From Escherichia coli (GTDB lineage Bacteria > Pseudomonadota > Gammaproteobacteria > Enterobacterales > Enterobacteriaceae): a stretch of DNA of 64,000 bases. Location: NCBI RefSeq assembly GCF_046105845.1, contig NZ_CP151004.1. One strand, written 5' to 3'. Positions 14,582 to 35,715 of the stretch are shown in pieces. The notes beneath the pieces were generated by a model. The model saw nothing but the letters and a program-made list of their open reading frames with translations. It did no database searches and was not told where the DNA came from. Each line of letters opens with the position of its first letter. The stretch's first letter is position 1. A program made the position numbers and the translations under genes.

Positions 14582-15664
<1,083 letters not shown>

Positions 15665-24632: not shown

Positions 24633-26579
24633 TTACTCTCGTGCCAGAGCATCTACTGGATCCAGTCGTGCCGCATTTCGTGCGGGTAACCAGCCAAATA
24701 AAATCCCGGTGACCGTCGAGCAGAGAAACGCCAGCAGCAGCGCCAAAGGTGAAAAACCAATCTCCCAGCCGGGTAAGAAAAGCTGCAAGGTGAAAGCAAT
24801 TAACAGTGACAGTGTTATTCCCAACGCGCCACCGACCAGGCAAACCAGCACGGCTTCGATCAGGAACTGTTGCAACACATCACTTGCTCGCGCACCTACA
24901 GCCATGCGAATGCCAATTTCCCGCGTCCGCTCGGTCACTGACACCAGCATAATATTCATTACACCAATACCGCCCACCACCAGCGAAATCACCGCCACCA
25001 GCGTCAGAAACAGTTGTAAAGTACGTGTGGTCTTTTCAACGGTTTTCAAGACGCCGTCCATGTTCCAGGTAAAGAAATCCTTTTTTCCGTGGCGCAGTGA
25101 AAGTAAACGCATGAGTTGCTGTTCCGCCTCAGCGCTGTCAAATCCTTCTTTCACCCTGACAGTAATGGAGTTCAGCCACGACTGGCCCATAACTCGCCCG
25201 GACATCGTGCTGTAAGGTAGCCAGACACGCAGCACTTTACTGCTACCAAACATCGACTGTTTTTCTTCCGCCACACCAATGACTCTGGCGGGCATATTGC
25301 CGACCAGAATCACCTCGCCAACCACATCTGCTTTATGGGGGAAAAGCTGGCGGCGAGTATTACTGTCGAGAACTACGACCTGCGCACGACCGTTCAGCTG
25401 CTCCTGATTAAAGGTGTTCCCTTCACTGAAGGTCATGCCATAGACATTAAAATAATCGCCGCTCACGCCATTGGCACTGGCAGCCACATCAACATTGTTA
25501 TAACGCAGGCGCAGGTTTTGCGAGACGGCAGGTGTGGCTGAGGCGACCCACGGTTGTTTTTGGATGGCGATTAAGTCATCGTACTTCAGCGCCTGCTGAT
25601 ATTGCGGATCGTCATCGCCAAAATCTTTCCCGGGATAGACATCAATAGTATTCGTACCAATAGAACGAATATCCGCCAGCACCATTTGTTTGGCGGCGTC
25701 ACCCACCACGACAATGGAAACCACCGACGCAATACCGATAATAATCCCCAGCATGGTCAGTAAAGTACGCATTTTATTCGCTGCCAGCGCCCGCCATGCC
25801 ATCGTCAGCGCCTCGTTAAAACCGCTGACAAACTGCCGCCAGCCAGACGCCGTGTTGACAGCAGGTTCCGTCCCGCCAGCAACATTCACTTTTTCAATGG
25901 CGGGAGGATTGCGCACAATTTCGCCGTCGCGAATTTCGATCACCCTCTCGGCCTGAGCAGCGACCTGCGGATCGTGGGTAACGATAATCACCGTATGCCC
26001 GCGATCGCGCAGCTGATGCAGGATCGCCATCACCTCTTCGCCAGAATGGCTGTCCAGTGCGCCGGTTGGTTCATCGGCAAGAATTACCTGACCGCCGTTC
26101 ATCAATGCCCGCGCGATGCTGACGCGCTGTTGCTGACCACCCGAAAGCTGTGCCGGATAATACTCTGTACGGTCTTCCAGCCCCAGTCGTTGCAGCAACT
26201 CCTGGGCGCGAAGCAGCCGCTGTTTCCGCTCAAGACCGGCATAGACGGCGGGTACTTCAACGTTCTGCTCGGCGGTTAAATGCGAAAGCAAATGGTAACG
26301 CTGGAAAATAAAGCCGAAATGCTCGCGGCGCAGTTGCGCCAGCGCATCGGCGTCCAGCGTGGCAACATCCTGACCGGCTACGCGATAGGTGCCGCTGGTG
26401 GCCTTATCCAGGCAGCCGAGAATATTCATTAGGGTCGATTTACCGGAACCCGAAGCGCCGACAATCGCCACCATCTCACCAGCATAAATATCGAGGGTGA
26501 TGCCCTTCAGCACCTCAACCTGCTCATCACCGGCAGGATAGCTGCGACGAATATCCTTTAATTCGAGCAAGGGCGTCAT
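24633..26579 (-). CDS. macB: Macrolide/peptide export ABC transporter MacB (ATPase-permease fusion)
   Basis: 648 aa; N-terminal ABC ATPase ([17 protein letters not shown]) plus FtsX-like permease. Confidence 0.95.
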
Positions 26580-27691: not shown

Positions 27692-27805
27692 AAATATTCT
27701 GAATACTCCATATGCCAATCCGGGTCATTAACTTCAACGAAATATCAACAAAACCCTAAAATTTACGTTAGTAATCACACTATTGATGTTTGGTTAAGAT
27801 ACGCA

Positions 27806-28798
27806 ATGGTGAAATCGACGTCATGTATAACCATTGATTTCATGAATATGTCGCAGCTAACTGAACGGACCTTTACGTCATCTGAATCTCTCAGCAGCCT
27901 GTCACTTTTTCTTAGTCTGGCACGTGGACAGTGTCGGCCGGGTAAATTCTGGCATCGCCGTAGTTTTCGCCAGAAATTTTTGCTGCGCTCGTTGATTATG
28001 CCGCGTTTAAGCGTTGAGTGGATGAACGAACTTTCCCACTGGCCCAATCTCAATGTGTTGTTAACGCGCCAGCCGCGACTGCCTGTGCGTCTGCATCGCC
28101 CTTACCTTGCGGCGAATCTTAGCCGTAAGCAATTGCTGGAGGCGTTACGTTACCATTATGCGTTACTCCGCGGGTGTATGTCGGCGGAAGAATTCAGCTT
28201 ATATTTGAATACCCCCGGGCTGCAACTGGCGAAGCTGGAAGGCAAAAACGGCGAGCAGTTCACACTTGAGCTGACCATGATGATCTCAATGGATAAAGAA
28301 GGTGACAGCACAATCCTGTTCCGCAACAGCGAAGGTATTCCTCTGGCAGAGATCACGTTTACCCTGTGTGAATATCAGGGGAAAAGAACGATGTTTATTG
28401 GCGGACTGCAAGGCGCAAAATGGGAAATTCCACATCAGGAAATCCAGAATGCGACGAAAGCCTGCCACGGGCTATTTCCTAAACGCCTCGTGATGGAAGC
28501 GGCCTGTCTGTTTGCCCAACGTTTGCAGGTAAAGCAGATCATTGCCGTCAGCAATGAAACACATATTTACCGCAGCCTGCGTTATCGCGATAAAGAAGGC
28601 AAGATCCATGCTGATTACAACGCTTTCTGGGAGTCGGTTGGCGGCGTATGTGATGCTGAATGCCATTACCGCCTTCCGGCACAGATAGCACGAAAAGAGA
28701 TTGCCGAAATCGCCAGTAAAAAACGGGCTGAATACCGTCGGCGCTATGAGATGCTCGACGCTATTCAGCCACAAATGGCCACGATGTTTCGCGGTTAA
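27806..28798 (+). CDS. ybjX: VirK/YbjX-family protein (DUF535)
   Basis: 330-aa ORF in the conserved position between macA and ybjD; exact start uncertain (ATG candidates at 27806, 27842, 27848). Confidence 0.8.
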   Translation: MVKSTSCITIDFMNMSQLTERTFTSSESLSSLSLFLSLARGQCRPGKFWHRRSFRQKFLLRSLIMPRLSVEWMNELSHWPNLNVLLTRQPRLPVRLHRPYLAANLSRKQLLEALRYHYALLRGCMSAEEFSLYLNTPGLQLAKLEGKNGEQFTLELTMMISMDKEGDSTILFRNSEGIPLAEITFTLCEYQGKRTMFIGGLQGAKWEIPHQEIQNATKACHGLFPKRLVMEAACLFAQRLQVKQIIAVSNETHIYRSLRYRDKEGKIHADYNAFWESVGGVCDAECHYRLPAQIARKEIAEIASKKRAEYRRRYEMLDAIQPQMATMFRG

Positions 28799-30453
28799 TC
28801 CGCGCGACCGCGCGCCAGCCACAGCACGCGTGAGAACATTTTTTTCAGCAGCGTCGGTACGGAGTCCACACCACGACGTCCGGCCTCCATTGCCACTTCA
28901 ATGGCAAGATCGGGTTTGGAAGAGCGATGGATCGCTTTCGAGATAATTTTGCGCAGATTCATCGGTACATTTTCCGGGATTTGCGCCACGCGGTGGAACA
29001 CATCGGAAAATCCCTGGCGATACATAAAATGTTCCATATCCAGCGCCGGTAACGCCGTTAAATGTTCTCGTTCGGCTTCCCGATCGTTATTCAACAGGCT
29101 GCGTACCGTAGCGGCATATTTCTTCCCTGCTTCATCGCCATCGACCAGTACATGCCATTCAATCCCCATTCGGCGGGCAAATTTAACCAGTGGCTTTAGC
29201 CCGGACTGGGCAAACTCAATGACCTTGATTCCTTCGGCATCAAAATGATGTCCGCACTGACGCGCCAGTTCATTGATAACCCAGGTTTCCGTTTCGCCTT
29301 CCACCAGCAGCCAGCAGCGTGCAAACAGCGATGACGGACGATTAAAACGAATGTGGAAAGAGATGCGTCGGCTGTCTTCGGTACTCAAACCACTCGGTCC
29401 CAGACGCCAGGCGGCAACGCGCGAGGACTCACGTACCAGTCGGCAAATATGCTCTACCGGCGTTAACGAAAGCAACTCACCCGAGTTGGTGGTGGCAATG
29501 CGCTGCAATGGCAGAAGATTCAACAGATGCCAGGCAACTGAAAGCATAATGGGGTGTAAACGGGTTTCTGGATCTTCGATCAGCAACAATGGACGGGCGT
29601 CTTTATCCAGTCGCAATGTGCCTTTTGCCTGCAACAAAGTAGCAAACAGGCCGAGCAAAATAACCCGATACGAGCGCCCTCCTGGTCGGTCAATCATCCG
29701 GTTGATGATATCCAGATAGCGCCAGCTTCGTTGCTCATTGCTGGCTCGCCGCCGCATTAAACGATATCGCGCCTGTCCGGCCCCCTGCTCAGAGAAATAA
29801 TGCTCTAGCAGCTGTACCATTGCGGAAAGTCCCTGACGAATCTGCCCATCAGAGAGATTTTGCGGATGTGAGGATAACTCACGGGCGAGGAAATCGAGCT
29901 GGCGCGCGGTGACTTCCACATTAGGGACATTTGGCACCGTGCCGTTACGAATACGGCGCATAAAACGGGCATCACGCAAGCGCAGCACCGGCATTAAACG
30001 CACCAGATGGCGTGCCTGATCGTTAATATCCTCGACATCAATCGGATGTCCGTCTTTATCGAGAAAACTGCGCAGTGTCATCACGCTGCCGTCTTCCGCA
30101 CTCTCCCCTTCCAGACGATAAAAAATACGGTGATAGCCATCGGTGCATGGCGTCCAGCACGCTTCCAGCGGCCGATAACGGCGAACCCGATGTCGGCCTG
30201 GCAACGATTCGCGGAAGGTCAAAATAATATGCAGATGATGTTCTCGCCCGTTGATATCTCCCGGCGGGAACCAGAAATCGTCGCGCTCAAAATGGTAGAG
30301 ATCTGATTCTGGCGATAGCAGCAGAGTTAAGGCGTCCAGCAAGCTGGATTTACCCCACGCGTTCTCCCCAATCAGGACGTTGTTTTGTTCCAGCATCAAC
30401 GACAAACGGTTGATACCGCGAAAACCCACAATTTCAACGCGCTCAAGAATCAT
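28795..30453 (-). CDS. ybjD: OLD-family putative nuclease YbjD (N-terminal ABC-type ATPase, C-terminal Toprim-like region)
   Basis: 552 aa; Walker A GENAWGKSS at the N-terminus; recognised as YbjD; stop overlaps the ybjX stop (shared TTAA). Confidence 0.85.
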   Translation of the reverse strand: MILERVEIVGFRGINRLSLMLEQNNVLIGENAWGKSSLLDALTLLLSPESDLYHFERDDFWFPPGDINGREHHLHIILTFRESLPGRHRVRRYRPLEACWTPCTDGYHRIFYRLEGESAEDGSVMTLRSFLDKDGHPIDVEDINDQARHLVRLMPVLRLRDARFMRRIRNGTVPNVPNVEVTARQLDFLARELSSHPQNLSDGQIRQGLSAMVQLLEHYFSEQGAGQARYRLMRRRASNEQRSWRYLDIINRMIDRPGGRSYRVILLGLFATLLQAKGTLRLDKDARPLLLIEDPETRLHPIMLSVAWHLLNLLPLQRIATTNSGELLSLTPVEHICRLVRESSRVAAWRLGPSGLSTEDSRRISFHIRFNRPSSLFARCWLLVEGETETWVINELARQCGHHFDAEGIKVIEFAQSGLKPLVKFARRMGIEWHVLVDGDEAGKKYAATVRSLLNNDREAEREHLTALPALDMEHFMYRQGFSDVFHRVAQIPENVPMNLRKIISKAIHRSSKPDLAIEVAMEAGRRGVDSVPTLLKKMFSRVLWLARGRAD

Positions 30454-30878
30454 ATCCCCTCCAGAAATATGTGACTTATCCTTTACGCTGGCAGTATAAC
30501 GGGAAAGGCCATGCTAATACGTGATGACATCACATTTAAGCATGGCAAATGTCTGAAAAATGAGCGAATAATCGCGTTATACTCCCTCTTGCTGATAAGC
30601 CTGCAAAAACAACAAAATCAAATAATTAGCATGATAAATTATTTTTTATTACGCCTAAAGGATTAAATCTTTTGCTTGCACTACACTGTCAATCAGACAA
30701 ATGACTATATGGGGCAACCCGCTGTTGCCCTAAATCAAATTTACTGGATTTATTTATCTGGTGAATGACTCGCCTTCGTTTTTAAAATAGCCGCGCATTA
30801 TTTCCGTCGTCACTTTTTTACGACGACCCTATAAAACGACCATATTTTTCACAGGGTCAATTTTTAATTGAGGTGGAT

Positions 30879-31574
30879 ATGTTCAGAAAATTAGCAGCTG
30901 AATGTTTTGGTACTTTCTGGCTTGTTTTTGGTGGCTGTGGTAGTGCTGTACTGGCCGCAGGCTTCCCGGAATTAGGCATTGGTTTTGCCGGCGTGGCGCT
31001 GGCATTCGGTCTGACCGTTCTGACGATGGCCTTTGCTGTTGGTCATATTTCTGGTGGTCATTTTAACCCGGCGGTCACTATTGGTTTATGGGCTGGCGGA
31101 CGTTTCCCGGCAAAAGAAGTCGTTGGCTACGTAATTGCCCAGGTTGTCGGCGGTATTGTTGCGGCGGCGCTGCTGTATTTAATTGCCAGTGGTAAAACGG
31201 GTTTTGACGCGGCAGCCAGCGGTTTTGCTTCTAACGGTTATGGCGAGCATTCGCCAGGCGGTTATTCCATGCTTTCCGCACTGGTAGTTGAACTGGTATT
31301 GAGTGCAGGTTTCCTGCTGGTGATCCACGGCGCAACCGACAAATACGCTCCGGCAGGTTTTGCACCGATCGCTATTGGTCTGGCCTTAACCCTGATTCAC
31401 TTAATCAGTATTCCGGTGACTAACACTTCTGTTAACCCGGCGCGCAGCACCGCGGTTGCTATCTTCCAGGGCGGCTGGGCATTAGAACAACTGTGGTTCT
31501 TCTGGGTGGTGCCAATTGTCGGCGGTATTATCGGTGGTCTGATTTACCGGACCCTGCTGGAAAAGCGTAATTAA
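30879..31574 (+). CDS. aqpZ: Aquaporin Z
   Basis: ORF 30873..31574; start at ATG gives [22 protein letters not shown], 231 aa; two NPA motifs. Confidence 0.95.
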
Positions 31575-31639
31575 TTAGCATTGGCATTTTATTTGCCCTG
31601 GTTGTTTTATCTTCGACGTTACAAACCGCACGGGTGTTG

Positions 31640-31860
31640 GTGGCGTCAAAATCGCTGAAGCGTTCCCCGAAGGCCGGGGCAGCCCACATGGATGTGGGCT
31701 GAGGGCGCGTCTTACAGGACGTTACCTCGCGCCCGACCCGGTAGCCGAAGGGGATAAGCGGAAGGCACCGCGCAGCGGCGATTTTGTTCGCCAGAGCCCG
31801 GGGGTGCAGGGGGCGGCGGCGACTGGCCGCCCCCTGCGCGCTCCTTGCACCAGTGGCTTT
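31640..31860. other. GC-rich, hairpin-dense intergenic element (unclassified)
   Basis: About 220 bp of high GC with several inverted repeats, including a perfect 11-bp stem at 31806..31837 and palindrome gcccacat-gg-atgtgggc at 31682..31699. Confidence 0.3.
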
Positions 31861-32030
31861 ATATGGCATTGCACATGAAAGGAGCGCAACAATGCTAAAC
31901 ACTCATAGAGAATTAAAAATCCCCCTCTGATGCATAACATTTCCTTTTAATTGCAACTTTACTCGTCCTTCCGCTTTCAGTAGTGTGTCATCGCGCATTT
32001 CGACTTCATCTTTGCAAGGACTGGGTTTTC

Positions 32031-32930
32031 ATGTTTTCTGGGCTGTTAATCATTCTGGTTCCCCTGATTGTGGGTTACCTCATTCCGCTTCGCCAAAAAG
32101 CTGCATTAAGAGTTATTAATCAGCTCTTAAGCTGGATGGTTTACCTTATTCTCTTTTTTATGGGTATCAGTCTGGCGTTTCTCGATAACCTCGCCAGTAA
32201 CCTGTTGGCAATTCTGCATTATTCCGCCGTCAGCATTACCATTATTTTACTCTGCAATATTATTGCGTTGTTGTGGCTGGAGCGCGGTCTGCCGTGGCGC
32301 AATCACCACCAGCAAGAAAAACTCCCGTCGCGTATTGCGATGGCGCTGGAGTCGCTAAAACTGTGCGGCGTAGTAGTGATTGGTTTTGCCATTGGCCTGA
32401 GTGGACTGGCTTTCTTACAACATGCGACCGAAGCCAGTGAATACACCTTAATTCTGCTACTTTTCCTCGTCGGTATTCAGTTGCGCAATAATGGCATGAC
32501 CTTAAAGCAGATTGTCCTTAATCGCCGGGGAATGATTGTCGCCGTGGTGGTGGTTGTCAGTTCATTAATTGGTGGTTTAATTAACGCCTTTATTCTTGAT
32601 CTCCCCATCAATACCGCGCTGGCAATGGCCTCTGGTTTCGGCTGGTATTCTCTTTCCGGTATTTTATTGACCGAATCTTTTGGTCCGGTAATCGGGAGCG
32701 CGGCGTTTTTTAATGATCTGGCCCGTGAGCTGATTGCAATTATGTTGATCCCTGGGCTGATTCGCCGCAGCCGCTCTACCGCACTGGGCTTATGCGGTGC
32801 CACGTCGATGGATTTCACCCTGCCCGTTCTTCAACGTACTGGCGGGCTGGATATGGTCCCGGCGGCGATTGTTCACGGTTTTATTCTTAGTCTGTTAGTG
32901 CCGATCCTCATCGCCTTTTTCTCTGCATAA
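32031..32930 (+). CDS. lysO: Lysine exporter LysO
   Basis: ORF 31983..32930; start at internal ATG gives MFSGLLIILVPLIVGYLIP, 299 aa; polytopic membrane protein. Confidence 0.85.
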   Translation: MFSGLLIILVPLIVGYLIPLRQKAALRVINQLLSWMVYLILFFMGISLAFLDNLASNLLAILHYSAVSITIILLCNIIALLWLERGLPWRNHHQQEKLPSRIAMALESLKLCGVVVIGFAIGLSGLAFLQHATEASEYTLILLLFLVGIQLRNNGMTLKQIVLNRRGMIVAVVVVVSSLIGGLINAFILDLPINTALAMASGFGWYSLSGILLTESFGPVIGSAAFFNDLARELIAIMLIPGLIRRSRSTALGLCGATSMDFTLPVLQRTGGLDMVPAAIVHGFILSLLVPILIAFFSA

Positions 32931-32963
32931 TACCTCTCTGGCGGTAGATCCCTGCCGCCAAAA

Positions 32964-32977
32964 TTGCGCTAAATCAA
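32964..32977 (+). promoter_or_regulatory. Candidate FNR half-site pair upstream of hcp (TTGCG-ctaa-ATCAA)
   Basis: Close to the FNR consensus TTGAT-N4-ATCAA; about 100 bp upstream of the hcp start. Confidence 0.45.
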
Positions 32978-33036
32978 TCTCCCTTAAAGTTGCATAAAAA
33001 ATCCCTTTTATCCCCGCGTTAAGCGTCTTAACCTTA

Positions 33037-33059
33037 AACATGTATATTAAATATAACTT
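33037..33059 (+). promoter_or_regulatory. Candidate NsrR operator upstream of hcp
   Basis: AT-rich inverted repeat aacatgtatatt-aaatataactt resembling the NsrR 11-1-11 motif, overlapping the likely core promoter. Confidence 0.5.
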
Positions 33060-33073
33060 TAAAAGGTGTGATC

Positions 33074-34726
33074 ATGTTTTGTGTGCAATGTGAACAAACT
33101 ATCCGTACTCCGGCAGGAAACGGCTGCTCATACGCGCAGGGGATGTGTGGTAAAACGGCGGAAACCTCTGACCTTCAGGATTTACTCATCGCGGCGCTGC
33201 AAGGGCTTTCGGCCTGGGCGGTAAAAGCGCGTGAATACGGCATCATCAACCACGATGTAGACAGCTTTGCGCCACGCGCATTTTTCTCAACCCTGACCAA
33301 CGTTAACTTCGATTCTCCGCGTATTGTCGGCTACGCTCGTGAAGCGATTGCCCTGCGCGAGGCGCTGAAAGCACAATGCCTGGCTGTAGATGCCAACGCG
33401 CACGTCGATAACCCGATGGCTGACCTGCAACTGGTGAGCGACGATCTCGGCGAGCTGCAACGTCAGGCAGCAGAATTTACCCCTAACAAAGATAAAGCGG
33501 CGATTGGCGAAAACATTCTCGGCCTGCGTCTGCTGTGCCTGTATGGCCTGAAAGGTGCGGCGGCCTATATGGAACACGCACACGTTCTCGGTCAATACGA
33601 CAATGATATTTACGCCCAGTACCATAAAATCATGGCGTGGCTGGGGACCTGGCCTGCCGATATGAACGCGCTTCTTGAGTGTTCAATGGAAATCGGCCAG
33701 ATGAACTTCAAAGTGATGAGCATTCTGGATGCAGGCGAAACCAGTAAATACGGTCACCCGACGCCAACCCAGGTCAACGTCAAAGCGACGGCGGGTAAAT
33801 GCATTCTGATTTCCGGTCACGATCTCAAAGATCTCTACAACCTGCTGGAACAGACCGAAGGCACGGGCGTTAATGTCTACACCCACGGTGAAATGCTGCC
33901 TGCGCATGGCTACCCGGAGCTGCGTAAATTCAAGCATCTGGTCGGTAACTACGGCAGCGGCTGGCAGAATCAGCAAGTGGAGTTCGCTCGTTTCCCTGGC
34001 CCCATCGTGATGACCTCGAACTGCATCATCGACCCAACCGTAGGCGCTTATGACGATCGTATCTGGACCCGCAGCATCGTTGGCTGGCCGGGTGTGCGTC
34101 ATCTGGATGGCGAAGATTTCTCTGCGGTCATCGCCCAGGCGCAACAAATGGCGGGCTTCCCGTACAGCGAAATTCCGCACCTGATCACCGTGGGCTTTGG
34201 TCGTCAAACGCTGCTTGGCGCAGCGGATACGCTGATTGATCTGGTAAGCCGTGAAAAACTGCGTCATATCTTCCTGCTTGGCGGCTGTGACGGCGCACGC
34301 GGCGAGCGTCACTACTTCACCGATTTCGCCACCAACGTGCCGGATGACTGTCTGATCCTGACTCTCGCCTGTGGTAAATATCGCTTTAACAAACTCGAGT
34401 TTGGCGATATCGAAGGTCTGCCGCGTCTGGTAGATGCTGGTCAGTGTAACGATGCTTACTCAGCGATTATTCTGGCGGTAACGCTGGCAGAAAAACTGGG
34501 CTGCGGTGTCAACGATCTGCCGCTGTCGCTGGTGCTCTCGTGGTTTGAACAGAAAGCGATTGTCATTCTGCTGACACTGCTTTCTCTGGGTGTGAAAAAT
34601 ATCGTAACCGGCCCGACTGCACCTGGTTTCCTGACACCAGACCTGCTGGCGGTGCTGAACGAGAAATTCGGCCTGCGTTCTATCACCACTGTTGAAGAAG
34701 ACATGAAGCAACTGTTGAGCGCGTAA
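33074..34726 (+). CDS. hcp: Hybrid-cluster protein (hydroxylamine reductase / NO reductase)
   Basis: ORF 33068..34726; start gives [20 protein letters not shown], 550 aa; N-terminal Cys motif. Confidence 0.95.
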
Positions 34727-34737
34727 GGAGTTTGTCG

Positions 34738-35706
34738 ATGACGATGCCAACGAATCAATGCCCGTGGCGGATGCAGGTTCATCACATTACGCAAGAAACG
34801 CCGGATGTATGGACGATTTCCCTGATTTGCCACGATTACTACCCATATCGCGCCGGGCAATATGCACTGGTCAGCGTGCGTAACTCAGCGGAAACGCTGC
34901 GTGCTTACACCATTTCCTCCACGCCAGGCGTGAGTGAATACATCACCCTGACTGTGCGGCGGATTGATGACGGAGTCGGCTCCCAGTGGCTGACGCGCGA
35001 TGTAAAACGCGGTGATTATCTCTGGCTTTCGGACGCGATGGGGGAATTTACCTGCGACGATAAAGCAGAAGATAAATTCCTGTTGCTGGCGGCAGGCTGC
35101 GGCGTCACGCCGATTATGTCGATGCGTCGCTGGCTGGCGAAGAACCGTCCGCAGGCCGATGTGCAGGTGATCTACAACGTGCGTTCGCCGCAGGATGTTA
35201 TTTTCGCCGATGAGTGGCGTAACTATCCGGTGACGCTGGTGGCAGAAAATAACGTTACCGAAGGCTTTATCGCTGGTCGTCTCACTCGCGAACTGCTGGC
35301 AGGTGTCCCTGACTTAACTTCACGTACCGTGATGACCTGCGGCCCGGCTCCGTATATGGATTGGGTAGAGCAGGAAGTGAAAGCGCTCGGCGTGACGCGT
35401 TTCTTTAAAGAGAAATTCTTCACCCCAGTAGCGGAAGCGGCGACCAGCGGTCTGAAATTCACCAAACTGCAACCGGCACGAGAATTTTACGCCCCGTTTG
35501 GCACCACGCTACTGGAGGCGCTGGAAAGCAATAACGTTCCGGTTGTCGCCGCCTGCCGTGCAGGTGTTTGCGGCTGCTGTAAGACGAAAGTGGTTTCCGG
35601 TGAATATACGGTGAGCAGCACAATGACGCTGACCGACGCCGAAATCGCTGAAGGTTACGTGCTGGCCTGCTCCTGCCATCCGCAGGGAGATTTGGTTCTC
35701 GCATAA
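34738..35706 (+). CDS. hcr: NADH oxidoreductase for Hcp (FNR-like FAD/NAD domain plus C-terminal 2Fe-2S ferredoxin)
   Basis: ORF 34732..35706; start at internal ATG gives MTMPTNQCPWRMQVHHITQETPDVW, 322 aa; C-terminal CRAGVCGCC cluster. Confidence 0.95.
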   Translation: MTMPTNQCPWRMQVHHITQETPDVWTISLICHDYYPYRAGQYALVSVRNSAETLRAYTISSTPGVSEYITLTVRRIDDGVGSQWLTRDVKRGDYLWLSDAMGEFTCDDKAEDKFLLLAAGCGVTPIMSMRRWLAKNRPQADVQVIYNVRSPQDVIFADEWRNYPVTLVAENNVTEGFIAGRLTRELLAGVPDLTSRTVMTCGPAPYMDWVEQEVKALGVTRFFKEKFFTPVAEAATSGLKFTKLQPAREFYAPFGTTLLEALESNNVPVVAACRAGVCGCCKTKVVSGEYTVSSTMTLTDAEIAEGYVLACSCHPQGDLVLA

Positions 35707-35715
35707 TCGTCTTAT

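What the first reader, a model, noticed from the sequence alone, without database searches (positions are those of the whole stretch)
28795..28798. Convergent genes sharing overlapping stop codons (ybjX/ybjD, ybjS/amiD)
Seen in sequence: ybjX (+) and ybjD (-) terminate in the same palindromic TTAA (28795..28798), and ybjS (+) and amiD (-) overlap by 4 bp at 41145..41148. Convergent transcripts must therefore read into each other's 3' ends, since there is no room for a terminator between them. Inference: possible antisense interference; minor.
Basis: seen in the sequence. Interest (0 to 1): 0.15.

Follow-up and report, generated by a model that had tools for sequence, protein, structure and literature searches.

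The report
Two ordinary 4-bp tail-to-tail gene overlaps
Two pairs of facing E. coli genes (ybjX/ybjD and ybjS/amiD) really do end inside each other's stop codons, but this is the commonest, already catalogued kind of convergent gene overlap, best explained as a by-product of how stop codons read on the opposite strand rather than as a special regulatory device.

Summary
ybjX(+) and ybjD(-) share TTAA at 28795-28798. ybjS(+) and amiD(-) share CTAA at 41145-41148. The same 4-bp overlaps are annotated in K-12 MG1655 and in RefSeq strains, and both junction segments are present, uninterrupted, in at least 5421 of 5426 complete E. coli genomes.

YTAR is the shortest possible convergent overlap and the documented modal class. 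Both pairs are already listed as convergent excludons of MG1655 (NAR 2025). Published bicyclomycin data (eLife 2021) place Rho termination regions 375-880 nt inside the partner gene on three of the four strands.

Across 34-36 Enterobacterales loci, the ybjX/ybjD overlap recurs in 23 of 34. YbjD's C-terminus (…WLARGRAD*) is nearly invariant, while YbjX's tail varies in sequence and length yet still ends at the same forced stop. Sister species differ (-4, +13, +24, -110).

The ybjS/amiD overlap is kept in only 11 of 36. Elsewhere it is replaced by small gaps, REP/BIME insertions or an extra gene. This fits a neutral "stop trap".

One addition: ybjD has a strong hairpin plus U6, 71 nt past its stop, inside ybjX codons. 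It is a likely embedded intrinsic terminator.

Antisense interference is untested and probably minor. Verdict: real, already known, low interest.

The parts
27806..28798 (+). ybjX CDS (VirK/YbjX, DUF535). The stop is TAA at 28796-28798. This is the K-12-style start; the PGAP start is equivalent to 27842.
28795..30453 (-). ybjD CDS (class 1 OLD-family ATPase/Toprim nuclease, 'oldB'). The stop is TAA, the reverse complement of 28795-28797. The last codon is GAT (Asp).
28795..28798 (.). TTAA tetramer shared by the ybjX and ybjD CDSs (YTAR class).
28718..28772 (-). Candidate intrinsic terminator of ybjD, embedded in ybjX codons KKRAEYRRRYEMLDAIQP. The hairpin is 28772..28725 (dG -26.5 kcal/mol) and is followed by U6 at 28723..28718, 71 nt past the ybjD stop.
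   Evidence: most stable hairpin next to a U-tract in the whole window; identical in K-12; kept across E. coli; no covariation support across genera
29680..29680 (+). Mapped position of the published Rho termination region on the ybjX strand (K-12 917246 -). It is antisense to ybjD, 882 nt past the ybjX stop.
   Evidence: coordinate mapping
27781..27797 (+). PhoP box TATTGA-N5-GGTTAA of the ybjX promoter, as defined in Shigella flexneri.
40135..41148 (+). ybjS CDS (NAD-dependent epimerase/dehydratase family). The stop is TAA at 41146-41148.
41145..41975 (-). amiD CDS (N-acetylmuramoyl-L-alanine amidase). The stop is TAG, the reverse complement of 41145-41147. The last codon is GAT.
41145..41148 (.). 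CTAA tetramer shared by the ybjS and amiD CDSs (YTAR class).
41799..41799 (+). Mapped position of the published Rho termination region on the ybjS strand (K-12 905089 -). It is antisense to amiD, 651 nt past the ybjS stop.
40770..40770 (-). Mapped position of the published Rho termination region on the amiD strand (K-12 906118 +). It is antisense to ybjS, 375 nt past the amiD stop.
41972..42295 (-). ybjQ, upstream of amiD, with a co-directional 4-bp overlap. A promoter-like site lies at 42405..42378 (-). It is the likely source of amiD transcription.

Best explanation
Both junctions are genuine 4-bp tail-to-tail CDS overlaps of the YTAR class. They are best explained as a neutral by-product of stop-codon geometry, a 'stop trap', and not as a dedicated regulatory element.

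Origin of the overlap:
- ybjD and amiD both end in GAT + TAR. On the opposite strand this reads YTA-ATC, which contains TAA in one frame.
- Any + strand ORF in that frame (ybjX, ybjS) that lacks an earlier stop is forced to end exactly there.
- Positions 1 and 4 of the tetramer are synonymous or stop-neutral for both genes. The central TA is doubly constrained, so the state is stable.

Transcription (partly shown in published K-12 data, partly inferred):
- Every transcript must enter the partner's antisense strand.
- ybjD transcripts probably stop at an intrinsic terminator embedded in the last ~75 nt of the ybjX CDS. This step is inferred from sequence.
- ybjX, ybjS and amiD transcripts have no intrinsic terminator. 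Once untranslated, they are ended by Rho several hundred nt inside the partner gene (published bicyclomycin data).
- Complementary 3' regions therefore exist, but any antisense or collision effect on expression is unproven and probably small.
For: The overlaps and their annotation are confirmed.

The class is known. [quoted passage not shown] E. coli has 58 convergent overlaps, and only 20% of the genes involved have rho-independent terminators. Another count gives 75 convergent overlaps in E. coli.

Comparative evidence for ybjX/ybjD:
- The gap is -4 in 23 of 34 loci, with all four YTAR tetramers seen (TTAA 9, CTAA 9, CTAG 3, TTAG 2).
- YbjD's C-terminus MFSRVxWLARGRAD* is nearly invariant from Escherichia to Yersinia and Serratia.
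- YbjX's tail after RRRYxLLD varies in sequence and in length (14 to more than 23 aa) yet ends at the same position.
- Close relatives differ: Serratia grimesii -4 against S. plymuthica +13; Yersinia aldovae -4 against Y. artesiana +24, Y. thracica +19 and Y. nurmii -110.

Comparative evidence for ybjS/amiD:
- The gap is -4 in only 11 of 36 loci.
- All -4 cases have TAR stops on amiD. Of the 25 loci without the overlap, 17 end amiD in TGA, which cannot form the trap.
- The junction is split by a REP/BIME insertion in two Citrobacter genomes, with the junction sequence duplicated so both stops survive.
- It is split by an extra gene or by repeat arrays in other genera.

Termination:
- Only weak terminator-like hits lie near the junctions.
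- Folds of the ybjX, ybjS and amiD 3' regions are no better than shuffles.
- The ybjD 3' hairpin plus U6 has z = -2.6, is the most stable such feature in 64 kb, is identical in K-12 and is kept in the most divergent E. coli copy.
- Rho termination regions antisense to ybjD, amiD and ybjS carry Rho scores of 15.9, 3.9 and 4.3.
- No sigma-70-like promoter was found on the read-through strands inside the partner genes.

Transcriptional overlap of both pairs is listed in at least 50% of 58 RNA-seq samples.
Against: The ybjX/ybjD overlap and synteny persist widely (23 of 34 loci). That could also reflect selection, and excludon pairs are reported to be more syntenic than other pairs.

The published Rho regions could stem from unmapped internal antisense promoters rather than from read-through. 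My promoter scan is crude.

No Term-seq 3' end was reported for any of the four genes, so the embedded ybjD terminator is unverified. Its hairpin is not supported by covariation across genera: 65.9% of cells pair against a shuffle mean of 66.5%.

C>G composition downstream of the stops is only weakly rut-like, and not at all for the amiD read-through.

The excludon listing is nearly automatic for any CDS-overlapping pair that is expressed.
Confidence: 0.75

Rival explanations
1. Functional convergent excludons. The obligatory 3' overlap is selected because transcription of one gene represses its partner, through RNAP collision and/or RNase III cleavage of the sense-antisense duplex. The result would be mutually exclusive expression of ybjX against ybjD and of ybjS against amiD.
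For: Both pairs are in the published E. coli excludome. Excludon pairs as a class show higher synteny. Antisense RNA covers about 880 nt of ybjD in untreated cells, with 299 reads upstream and 18 downstream of the Rho region. The ybjX-ybjD adjacency is conserved across Enterobacterales. Convergent transcription can cause interference that Rho relieves in reporter systems. A proven E. coli example of convergent 3' crosstalk exists in mscL-arfA.
Against: No expression or genetic test exists for these pairs. p19 dsRNA validation failed for convergent pairs in general. The ybjS/amiD overlap is lost in most genera and is interrupted by REP/BIME or a whole gene without apparent consequence. The YbjX tail variation and the -4/+13/+24/-110 differences between sister species look like drift to and from a trap. 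Rho and the embedded terminator limit the overlap.
Confidence: 0.15
2. Selection for compaction or for co-inheritance. Under this view the overlap is kept because it saves sequence, or because it locks the two genes together so that deletions and insertions between them are counter-selected.
For: Convergent gaps in this region are generally tight: 28-40 bp at four other junctions. Short overlaps have been discussed as 'genomic compression'.
Against: Saving 4 bp is negligible. Insertions of 100-630 bp at the ybjS/amiD junction are tolerated in several genera. The partners have no known functional link: an OLD nuclease with an envelope protein, and an epimerase with an amidase.
Confidence: 0.05
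3. Annotation artefact. Under this view one of the stops is miscalled and the real C-terminus lies upstream, which would remove the overlap.
For: The last ~12 residues of YbjX are poorly conserved.
Against: Stop codons are read directly from the sequence. The C-termini of YbjD, AmiD and YbjS are conserved to the last residue across genera. Independent annotations agree. There is no in-frame stop upstream in E. coli.
Confidence: 0.01

Closest known systems
4-bp convergent (tail-to-tail) stop-codon overlaps CTAA/TTAA/CTAG/TTAG, as analysed by Lillo & Krakauer 2007 (PMC2174442). The 'offset' model of Kingsford et al. 2007 is cited from my own knowledge and is not held in the library.
   Same: The tetramers are exactly the same (TTAA, CTAA). 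The length is the minimal and modal one. The stop-codon-mutation origin is the same. E. coli has 58-75 such convergent overlaps of all lengths.
   Different: Nothing differs in kind. The additions here are the cross-genus reconstruction for these two pairs and the observation that a conserved Asp-stop (GAY TAR) of the minus-strand gene sets the trap.
Convergent excludons of E. coli MG1655 (ExcludonFinder, Sanmartin et al. 2025, PMC12288877)
   Same: amiD-ybjS and ybjD-ybjX are themselves entries in the published list of 165. The idea of a terminator lying inside the neighbour's transcription unit matches the embedded ybjD hairpin.
   Different: The excludon concept implies reciprocal repression. 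That is not shown for these pairs, and the listing follows almost automatically from the CDS overlap.
Rho-dependent termination of antisense and read-through transcription (Adams et al. 2021, PMC7815308; Peters et al. 2012, as cited there)
   Same: Published Rho termination regions lie antisense to ybjD, amiD and ybjS, on the strands of the convergent partners. Antisense is the largest class of Rho regions, at 51.5%.
   Different: No region is reported for ybjD read-through into ybjX, where an intrinsic terminator candidate exists instead. The origin of the antisense RNA, read-through or internal promoter, is not established.
Bidirectional intrinsic terminators between convergent genes (Ju et al. 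2019, cited; details from my own knowledge)
   Same: They solve the same problem, ending two convergent transcripts in little space.
   Different: There is none here. There is no intergenic space, and the only strong hairpin (28725-28772) has a U-tract on the minus-strand side only. On the + strand it is followed by CCACAAATGG.
mscL-arfA convergent 3' antisense crosstalk (PMC10070815)
   Same: It is a convergent E. coli pair with overlapping 3' transcription, and it is also in the excludon list.
   Different: That pair has experimental evidence of regulation. The two pairs here have none.

Membership tests
YTAR 4-bp convergent CDS overlap | Two real protein-coding genes on opposite strands, arranged tail to tail. 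| tested here: met
   ORFs; Pfam families for all four proteins; RefSeq and K-12 annotation; orthologues in 34-36 Enterobacterales loci.
YTAR 4-bp convergent CDS overlap | Both stop codons lie within one tetramer, Y-T-A-R. | tested here: met
   TTAA at 28795-28798 and CTAA at 41145-41148. Orthologous junctions show TTAA, CTAA, TTAG and CTAG.
Convergent excludon | Overlapping transcription of the two neighbouring genes. | not testable with these tools
   No RNA data can be generated here. The published list includes both pairs in at least 50% of 58 RNA-seq samples, and BCM data show antisense RNA over ybjD, amiD and ybjS.
Convergent excludon | Reciprocal or mutually exclusive expression of the partners. 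| not tested
   No source I read tests these pairs. The comparative data show the overlap is dispensable at ybjS/amiD.
Convergent excludon | RNase III processing of the sense-antisense duplex. | not testable with these tools
   p19 dsRNA capture was uninformative for convergent pairs.
Intrinsic (Rho-independent) terminator embedded in the neighbour's CDS (ybjD 3' end) | A GC-rich hairpin immediately followed by a U-tract, in the right orientation downstream of the stop. | tested here: met
   Hairpin at 28772..28725, dG -26.5, with U6 starting 2 nt after the stem, 71 nt past the stop. It is the strongest in the window.
Intrinsic (Rho-independent) terminator embedded in the neighbour's CDS (ybjD 3' end) | A mapped RNA 3' end at the U-tract. 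| tested here: inconclusive
   No Term-seq 3' end is labelled ybjX or ybjD in the Adams et al. supplementary files 1 and 3. Expression may be too low. Other datasets were not readable.
Intrinsic (Rho-independent) terminator embedded in the neighbour's CDS (ybjD 3' end) | Structure conserved through compensatory changes. | tested here: not met
   Across 17 genera or species, 65.9% of cells pair against a shuffle mean of 66.5%. The RNAalifold consensus does not recover the hairpin. A hairpin plus U6 is present only in Escherichia, the Citrobacter freundii group and Pseudocitrobacter.
Intrinsic terminators for ybjX, ybjS, amiD | A hairpin plus U-tract within about 100 nt of the stop. | tested here: not met
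   Only weak 5-bp hits were found. Fold z-scores are -0.08, -0.56 and +0.45.
Rho-dependent terminator in the antisense region | Bicyclomycin-sensitive read-through. | not testable with these tools
   Published Rho scores are 15.9 (antisense to ybjD), 3.9 (antisense to amiD) and 4.3 (antisense to ybjS). I recomputed the ratios from the listed read counts and they match.
Rho-dependent terminator in the antisense region | A C-rich, G-poor (rut-like) untranslated stretch upstream. | tested here: inconclusive
   C>G windows occur at +280 to +440 nt after ybjX and at 0-80 and beyond +720 nt after ybjS. There are none before +840 after amiD.
Bidirectional terminator | One hairpin flanked by an A-tract upstream and a U-tract downstream, serving both strands. 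| tested here: not met
   The U-tract is on the minus-strand side only.

The most novel reading that the evidence does not exclude
The ybjX/ybjD junction could be a working excludon that ties an anti-phage OLD nuclease to envelope-stress signalling. ybjX is PhoPQ-activated at low Mg2+ (PhoP box at 27781-27797). It has no terminator, and its transcript runs about 0.9 kb antisense through the Toprim-encoding half of ybjD until Rho stops it. Induction of ybjX, or reduced Rho activity, would then lower expression of the potentially toxic YbjD/OldB nuclease. ybjD's own embedded terminator would keep the reverse effect short.
Probability: 0.07. Interest if true: 0.4.

Novelty: already known. Interest (0 to 1): 0.08.

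Why it matters
It matters little. The result shows that this flagged feature is a textbook-class overlap, already annotated, already listed in an excludon catalogue and already covered by Rho-termination maps.

There are three modest values:
- It is a clean natural illustration of the stop-trap model: one partner's invariant Asp-stop fixes where a fast-evolving partner ends, with repeated gains and losses between sister species.
- It yields a candidate intrinsic terminator written inside coding sequence.
- It gives a cheap, testable link between PhoPQ-driven ybjX transcription and the recently characterised OLD nuclease ybjD.

Tried and rejected
- Conserved RNA structure at the ybjD 3' hairpin. 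I aligned 17 junctions and tested the E. coli structure and an RNAalifold consensus. There was no covariation support, so the terminator claim is limited to Escherichia and Citrobacter.
- Rfam scan of 28000-42500. It gave only a spurious sub-threshold archaeal snoRNA hit.
- Simple terminator and promoter scans. No convincing terminators lie at the junctions, apart from the long hairpin that the scan under-called, and there are no internal promoters on the read-through strands.
- C/G composition as a rut predictor. It was only weakly informative.
- Gene-specific 3'-end data in other papers. There was no held supplement or no hits for Dar & Sorek 2018, SMRT-Cappable-seq, the iRAP paper and the ExcludonFinder supplements.
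- Annotation error. Rejected, because the stops are unambiguous and three of the four C-termini are conserved to the last residue.
- Genome-wide count of -4 convergent pairs. I did not attempt it with the annotation tool because it would need about 90 calls. I used literature counts instead.

Full report
**What is there**

The window is E. coli chromosome, 99.3-99.4% identical at best to complete RefSeq genomes. The region is present in 5424 (ybjX/ybjD) and 5423 (ybjS/amiD) of 5426 genomes.

- Junction 1 at 28795-28798. The + strand reads GGT TAA, where TAA is the stop of ybjX. The - strand reads GAT TAA, the stop of ybjD.
- Junction 2 at 41145-41148. The + strand reads CGC TAA (ybjS stop). 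The - strand reads GAT TAG (amiD stop).

Each pair therefore shares 4 bp of CDS, and the stop codons themselves share the central TA. K-12 MG1655 and PGAP-annotated strains carry identical overlaps. All four proteins have the expected Pfam families. The only correction is that the second tetramer is CTAA, with TAG as the amiD stop.

**Is it more than chance?**

From the genetic code, convergent overlaps of 1, 2 or 3 bp are impossible. The reverse complements of the stop codons start with T or C, and stops end in A or G. The shortest possible overlap is therefore the tetramer YTAR.

Lillo & Krakauer (PMC2174442) name CTAA, TTAA, CTAG and TTAG as the cause of the jump at length 4. They report 1890 convergent overlaps in 58 species, of which 1218 are 5 nt or longer. 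They count 58 convergent overlaps in E. coli. Huvet & Stumpf count 75.

That implies roughly 20-27 four-bp cases per E. coli genome, or about 0.3 per 64 kb. This is my inference from those numbers. Two in one window is a mild coincidence. In the syntenic annotated region, 2 of 9 convergent junctions are -4, and four more have gaps of only 28-40 bp.

**Comparative anatomy**

One scan of species-representative genomes with PoxB and 10-kb flanks captured both junctions in 80 loci. I located the four orthologues by tblastn, extended each to its stop and measured the stop-to-stop distances.

*ybjX/ybjD*
- The gap is -4 in 23 of 34 loci: Escherichia, Citrobacter, Salmonella, Pseudocitrobacter, Enterobacter, Pluralibacter, Phytobacter, Leclercia, Rahnella, Serratia and Yersinia aldovae.
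- All four YTAR variants occur. The outer positions change only by transitions that are silent for both genes, and the central TA never changes.
- YbjD ends ...MFSRVxWLARGRAD* almost everywhere.
- YbjX is only 41-60% identical outside Escherichia. After the conserved KKRAEYRRRYxLLD motif its tail varies in sequence and length (14 to more than 23 residues), yet still ends at the same nucleotide.
- Sister species differ: Serratia grimesii -4 against S. plymuthica +13; Yersinia aldovae -4 against Y. artesiana +24, Y. thracica +19 and Y. nurmii -110.

This is what a stop trap predicts. GAY-TAR on the minus strand reads YTA-RTC on the plus strand, which forces TAA or TAG in one plus frame. Any ybjX allele that loses its own stop in that frame ends there.

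*ybjS/amiD*
- The gap is -4 in only 11 of 36 loci.
- Every -4 case has a TAR stop on amiD. Seventeen of the 25 loci without the overlap use TGA, which cannot form the trap.
- In Citrobacter youngae CCUG 30791 and Citrobacter sp. Cu233, a REP/BIME pair sits exactly in the junction, flanked by a duplicated GCGTTAACC, so that both genes keep their last codon and stop. C. youngae ATCC 29220 still has -4.
- Other genera carry an extra ~190-aa secreted-protein gene or GC-rich repeat arrays there.

The overlap as such is evidently dispensable.

Within E. coli both junction segments are fixed. The 141-bp segments match in one ungapped piece in at least 5421 genomes. The most divergent ybjX/ybjD copy (95.0%) still has TTAA and an annotated 4-bp overlap.

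**How the transcripts end**

Consensus scans find no convincing terminator at either junction. The 3' regions of ybjX, ybjS and amiD fold no better than shuffled sequence.

The exception is the minus strand just past the ybjD stop:
- A 48-nt hairpin at 28772..28725 (dG -26.5 kcal/mol) is followed after 2 nt by U6 at 28723..28718. It lies 71 nt downstream of the stop, inside ybjX codons KKRAEYRRRYEMLDAIQP.
- In a crude scan of both strands of the whole window, it is the most stable hairpin adjacent to a U-tract of 5 or more: -26.5 against -21.5 for the next.
- It is identical in K-12 and survives, through a G-U wobble and a bulge change, in the most divergent E. coli copy.
- Citrobacter werkmanii and C. 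youngae have different but equally strong hairpins at the same place.
- Across 17 genera or species the structure has no covariation support.
- No Term-seq 3' end is reported there.

I call it a likely, unverified, lineage-restricted embedded terminator.

For the other three transcripts, published MG1655 data point to Rho. Adams et al. 2021 (supplementary file 2, DirectRNA-seq with and without bicyclomycin) list these Rho termination regions:

| K-12 position, strand | Antisense to | Reads upstream/downstream, untreated | Reads upstream/downstream, +BCM | Rho score | p |
|---|---|---|---|---|---|
| 917246 (-) | ybjD | 299/18 | 568/545 | 15.9 | 7e-53 |
| 905089 (-) | amiD | 186/25 | 305/160 | 3.9 | — |
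| 906118 (+) | ybjS | 65/26 | 31/53 | 4.3 | — |

I checked the column order by recomputing the ratios from the read counts. These are the strands of ybjX, ybjS and amiD, and the sites lie 882, 651 and 375 nt beyond the respective stops. Mapped to the window they are about 29680(+), 41799(+) and 40770(-). No sigma-70-like site was found on those strands inside the partner genes. Read-through is therefore the simplest source, but this is inference. C>G composition is only weakly supportive.

**Known status**

ExcludonFinder (NAR 2025) lists amiD-ybjS and ybjD-ybjX among the 165 convergent excludons of MG1655 seen in at least 50% of 58 RNA-seq samples. With their definition, transcript boundaries at 50% of gene coverage, any expressed CDS-overlapping pair qualifies. 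The listing therefore confirms overlap but not regulation. Their p19 dsRNA validation did not work for convergent pairs.

The ybjD paper (PMC13261556) notes the convergent arrangement with ybjX and identifies YbjD as a class 1 OLD protein. ybjX is PhoPQ-activated in Shigella, with a defined PhoP box. That box is present unchanged at 27781-27797.

**Verdict**

The feature is real, ordinary and already known. 'Antisense interference' remains a possibility that the comparative data do not favour as the reason for the overlap.

The most novel reading not excluded is that PhoP-driven ybjX read-through tunes the OLD nuclease ybjD. I give it about 7%.

Noticed in passing
window 31619-31892 (aqpZ-lysO intergenic region): A 275-bp GC-rich, hairpin-rich element is inverted relative to K-12 (915009-915283). 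It is only 91.6% identical, while the flanks are 97-98%. It is an unannotated dispersed repeat with a median of 3 and up to 8 places per E. coli genome. There is no Rfam match. It may be a MITE-like or otherwise mobile element, and its identity is not established.
   Followed up: partly
window 42350-44913: A ~2.5-kb island between ybjQ and ybjP is absent from K-12. It carries an apparently intact 600-aa ORF (42506..44308, -) with weak pentapeptide-repeat Pfam hits. The island is present in 1128 of 5426 E. coli genomes, at 96.2% identity at best. It is annotated as a truncated pseudogene in the closest strains.
   Followed up: partly
L006 6126-6230 (Citrobacter youngae CCUG 30791); L010 ~15310-15410 (Citrobacter sp. 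Cu233): A REP/BIME pair is inserted exactly into the ybjS/amiD TTAA junction. About 9 bp (GCGTTAACC) is duplicated on both sides, so each gene keeps its last codon and stop. C. youngae ATCC 29220 (L007) retains the 4-bp overlap. The target-duplication-like flank is unusual for REP insertion.
   Followed up: partly
L019 13974-14560, L020 15310-15910, L033 15312-15918; L021 15301-15929: In Phytobacter and two other taxa, a ~190-aa signal-peptide protein gene (- strand) sits between ybjS and amiD. In Superficieibacter the gap holds a tandem array of ~83-bp GC-rich repeats.
   Followed up: no
window 27781-27842: The experimentally defined PhoP box, which overlaps the -35 of PybjX, lies at 27781-27797. 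That is only 9 bp upstream of the K-12-style ybjX start codon (27806). The transcript probably starts downstream of that ATG. This favours the shorter PGAP start (equivalent to 27842, 318 aa) over the 330-aa K-12 annotation.
   Followed up: partly
window 41972-41975 and 26576-26579: There are co-directional 4-bp overlaps (start and stop within one tetramer) at ybjQ/amiD and at macA/macB, the usual operon-coupling type.
   Followed up: no
K-12 908096 (+), about window 38792 (-): A further published Rho termination region lies antisense to ybjT, on the amiD strand (Rho score 9.0). This suggests additional antisense transcription across the ybjS-ybjT genes.
   Followed up: no
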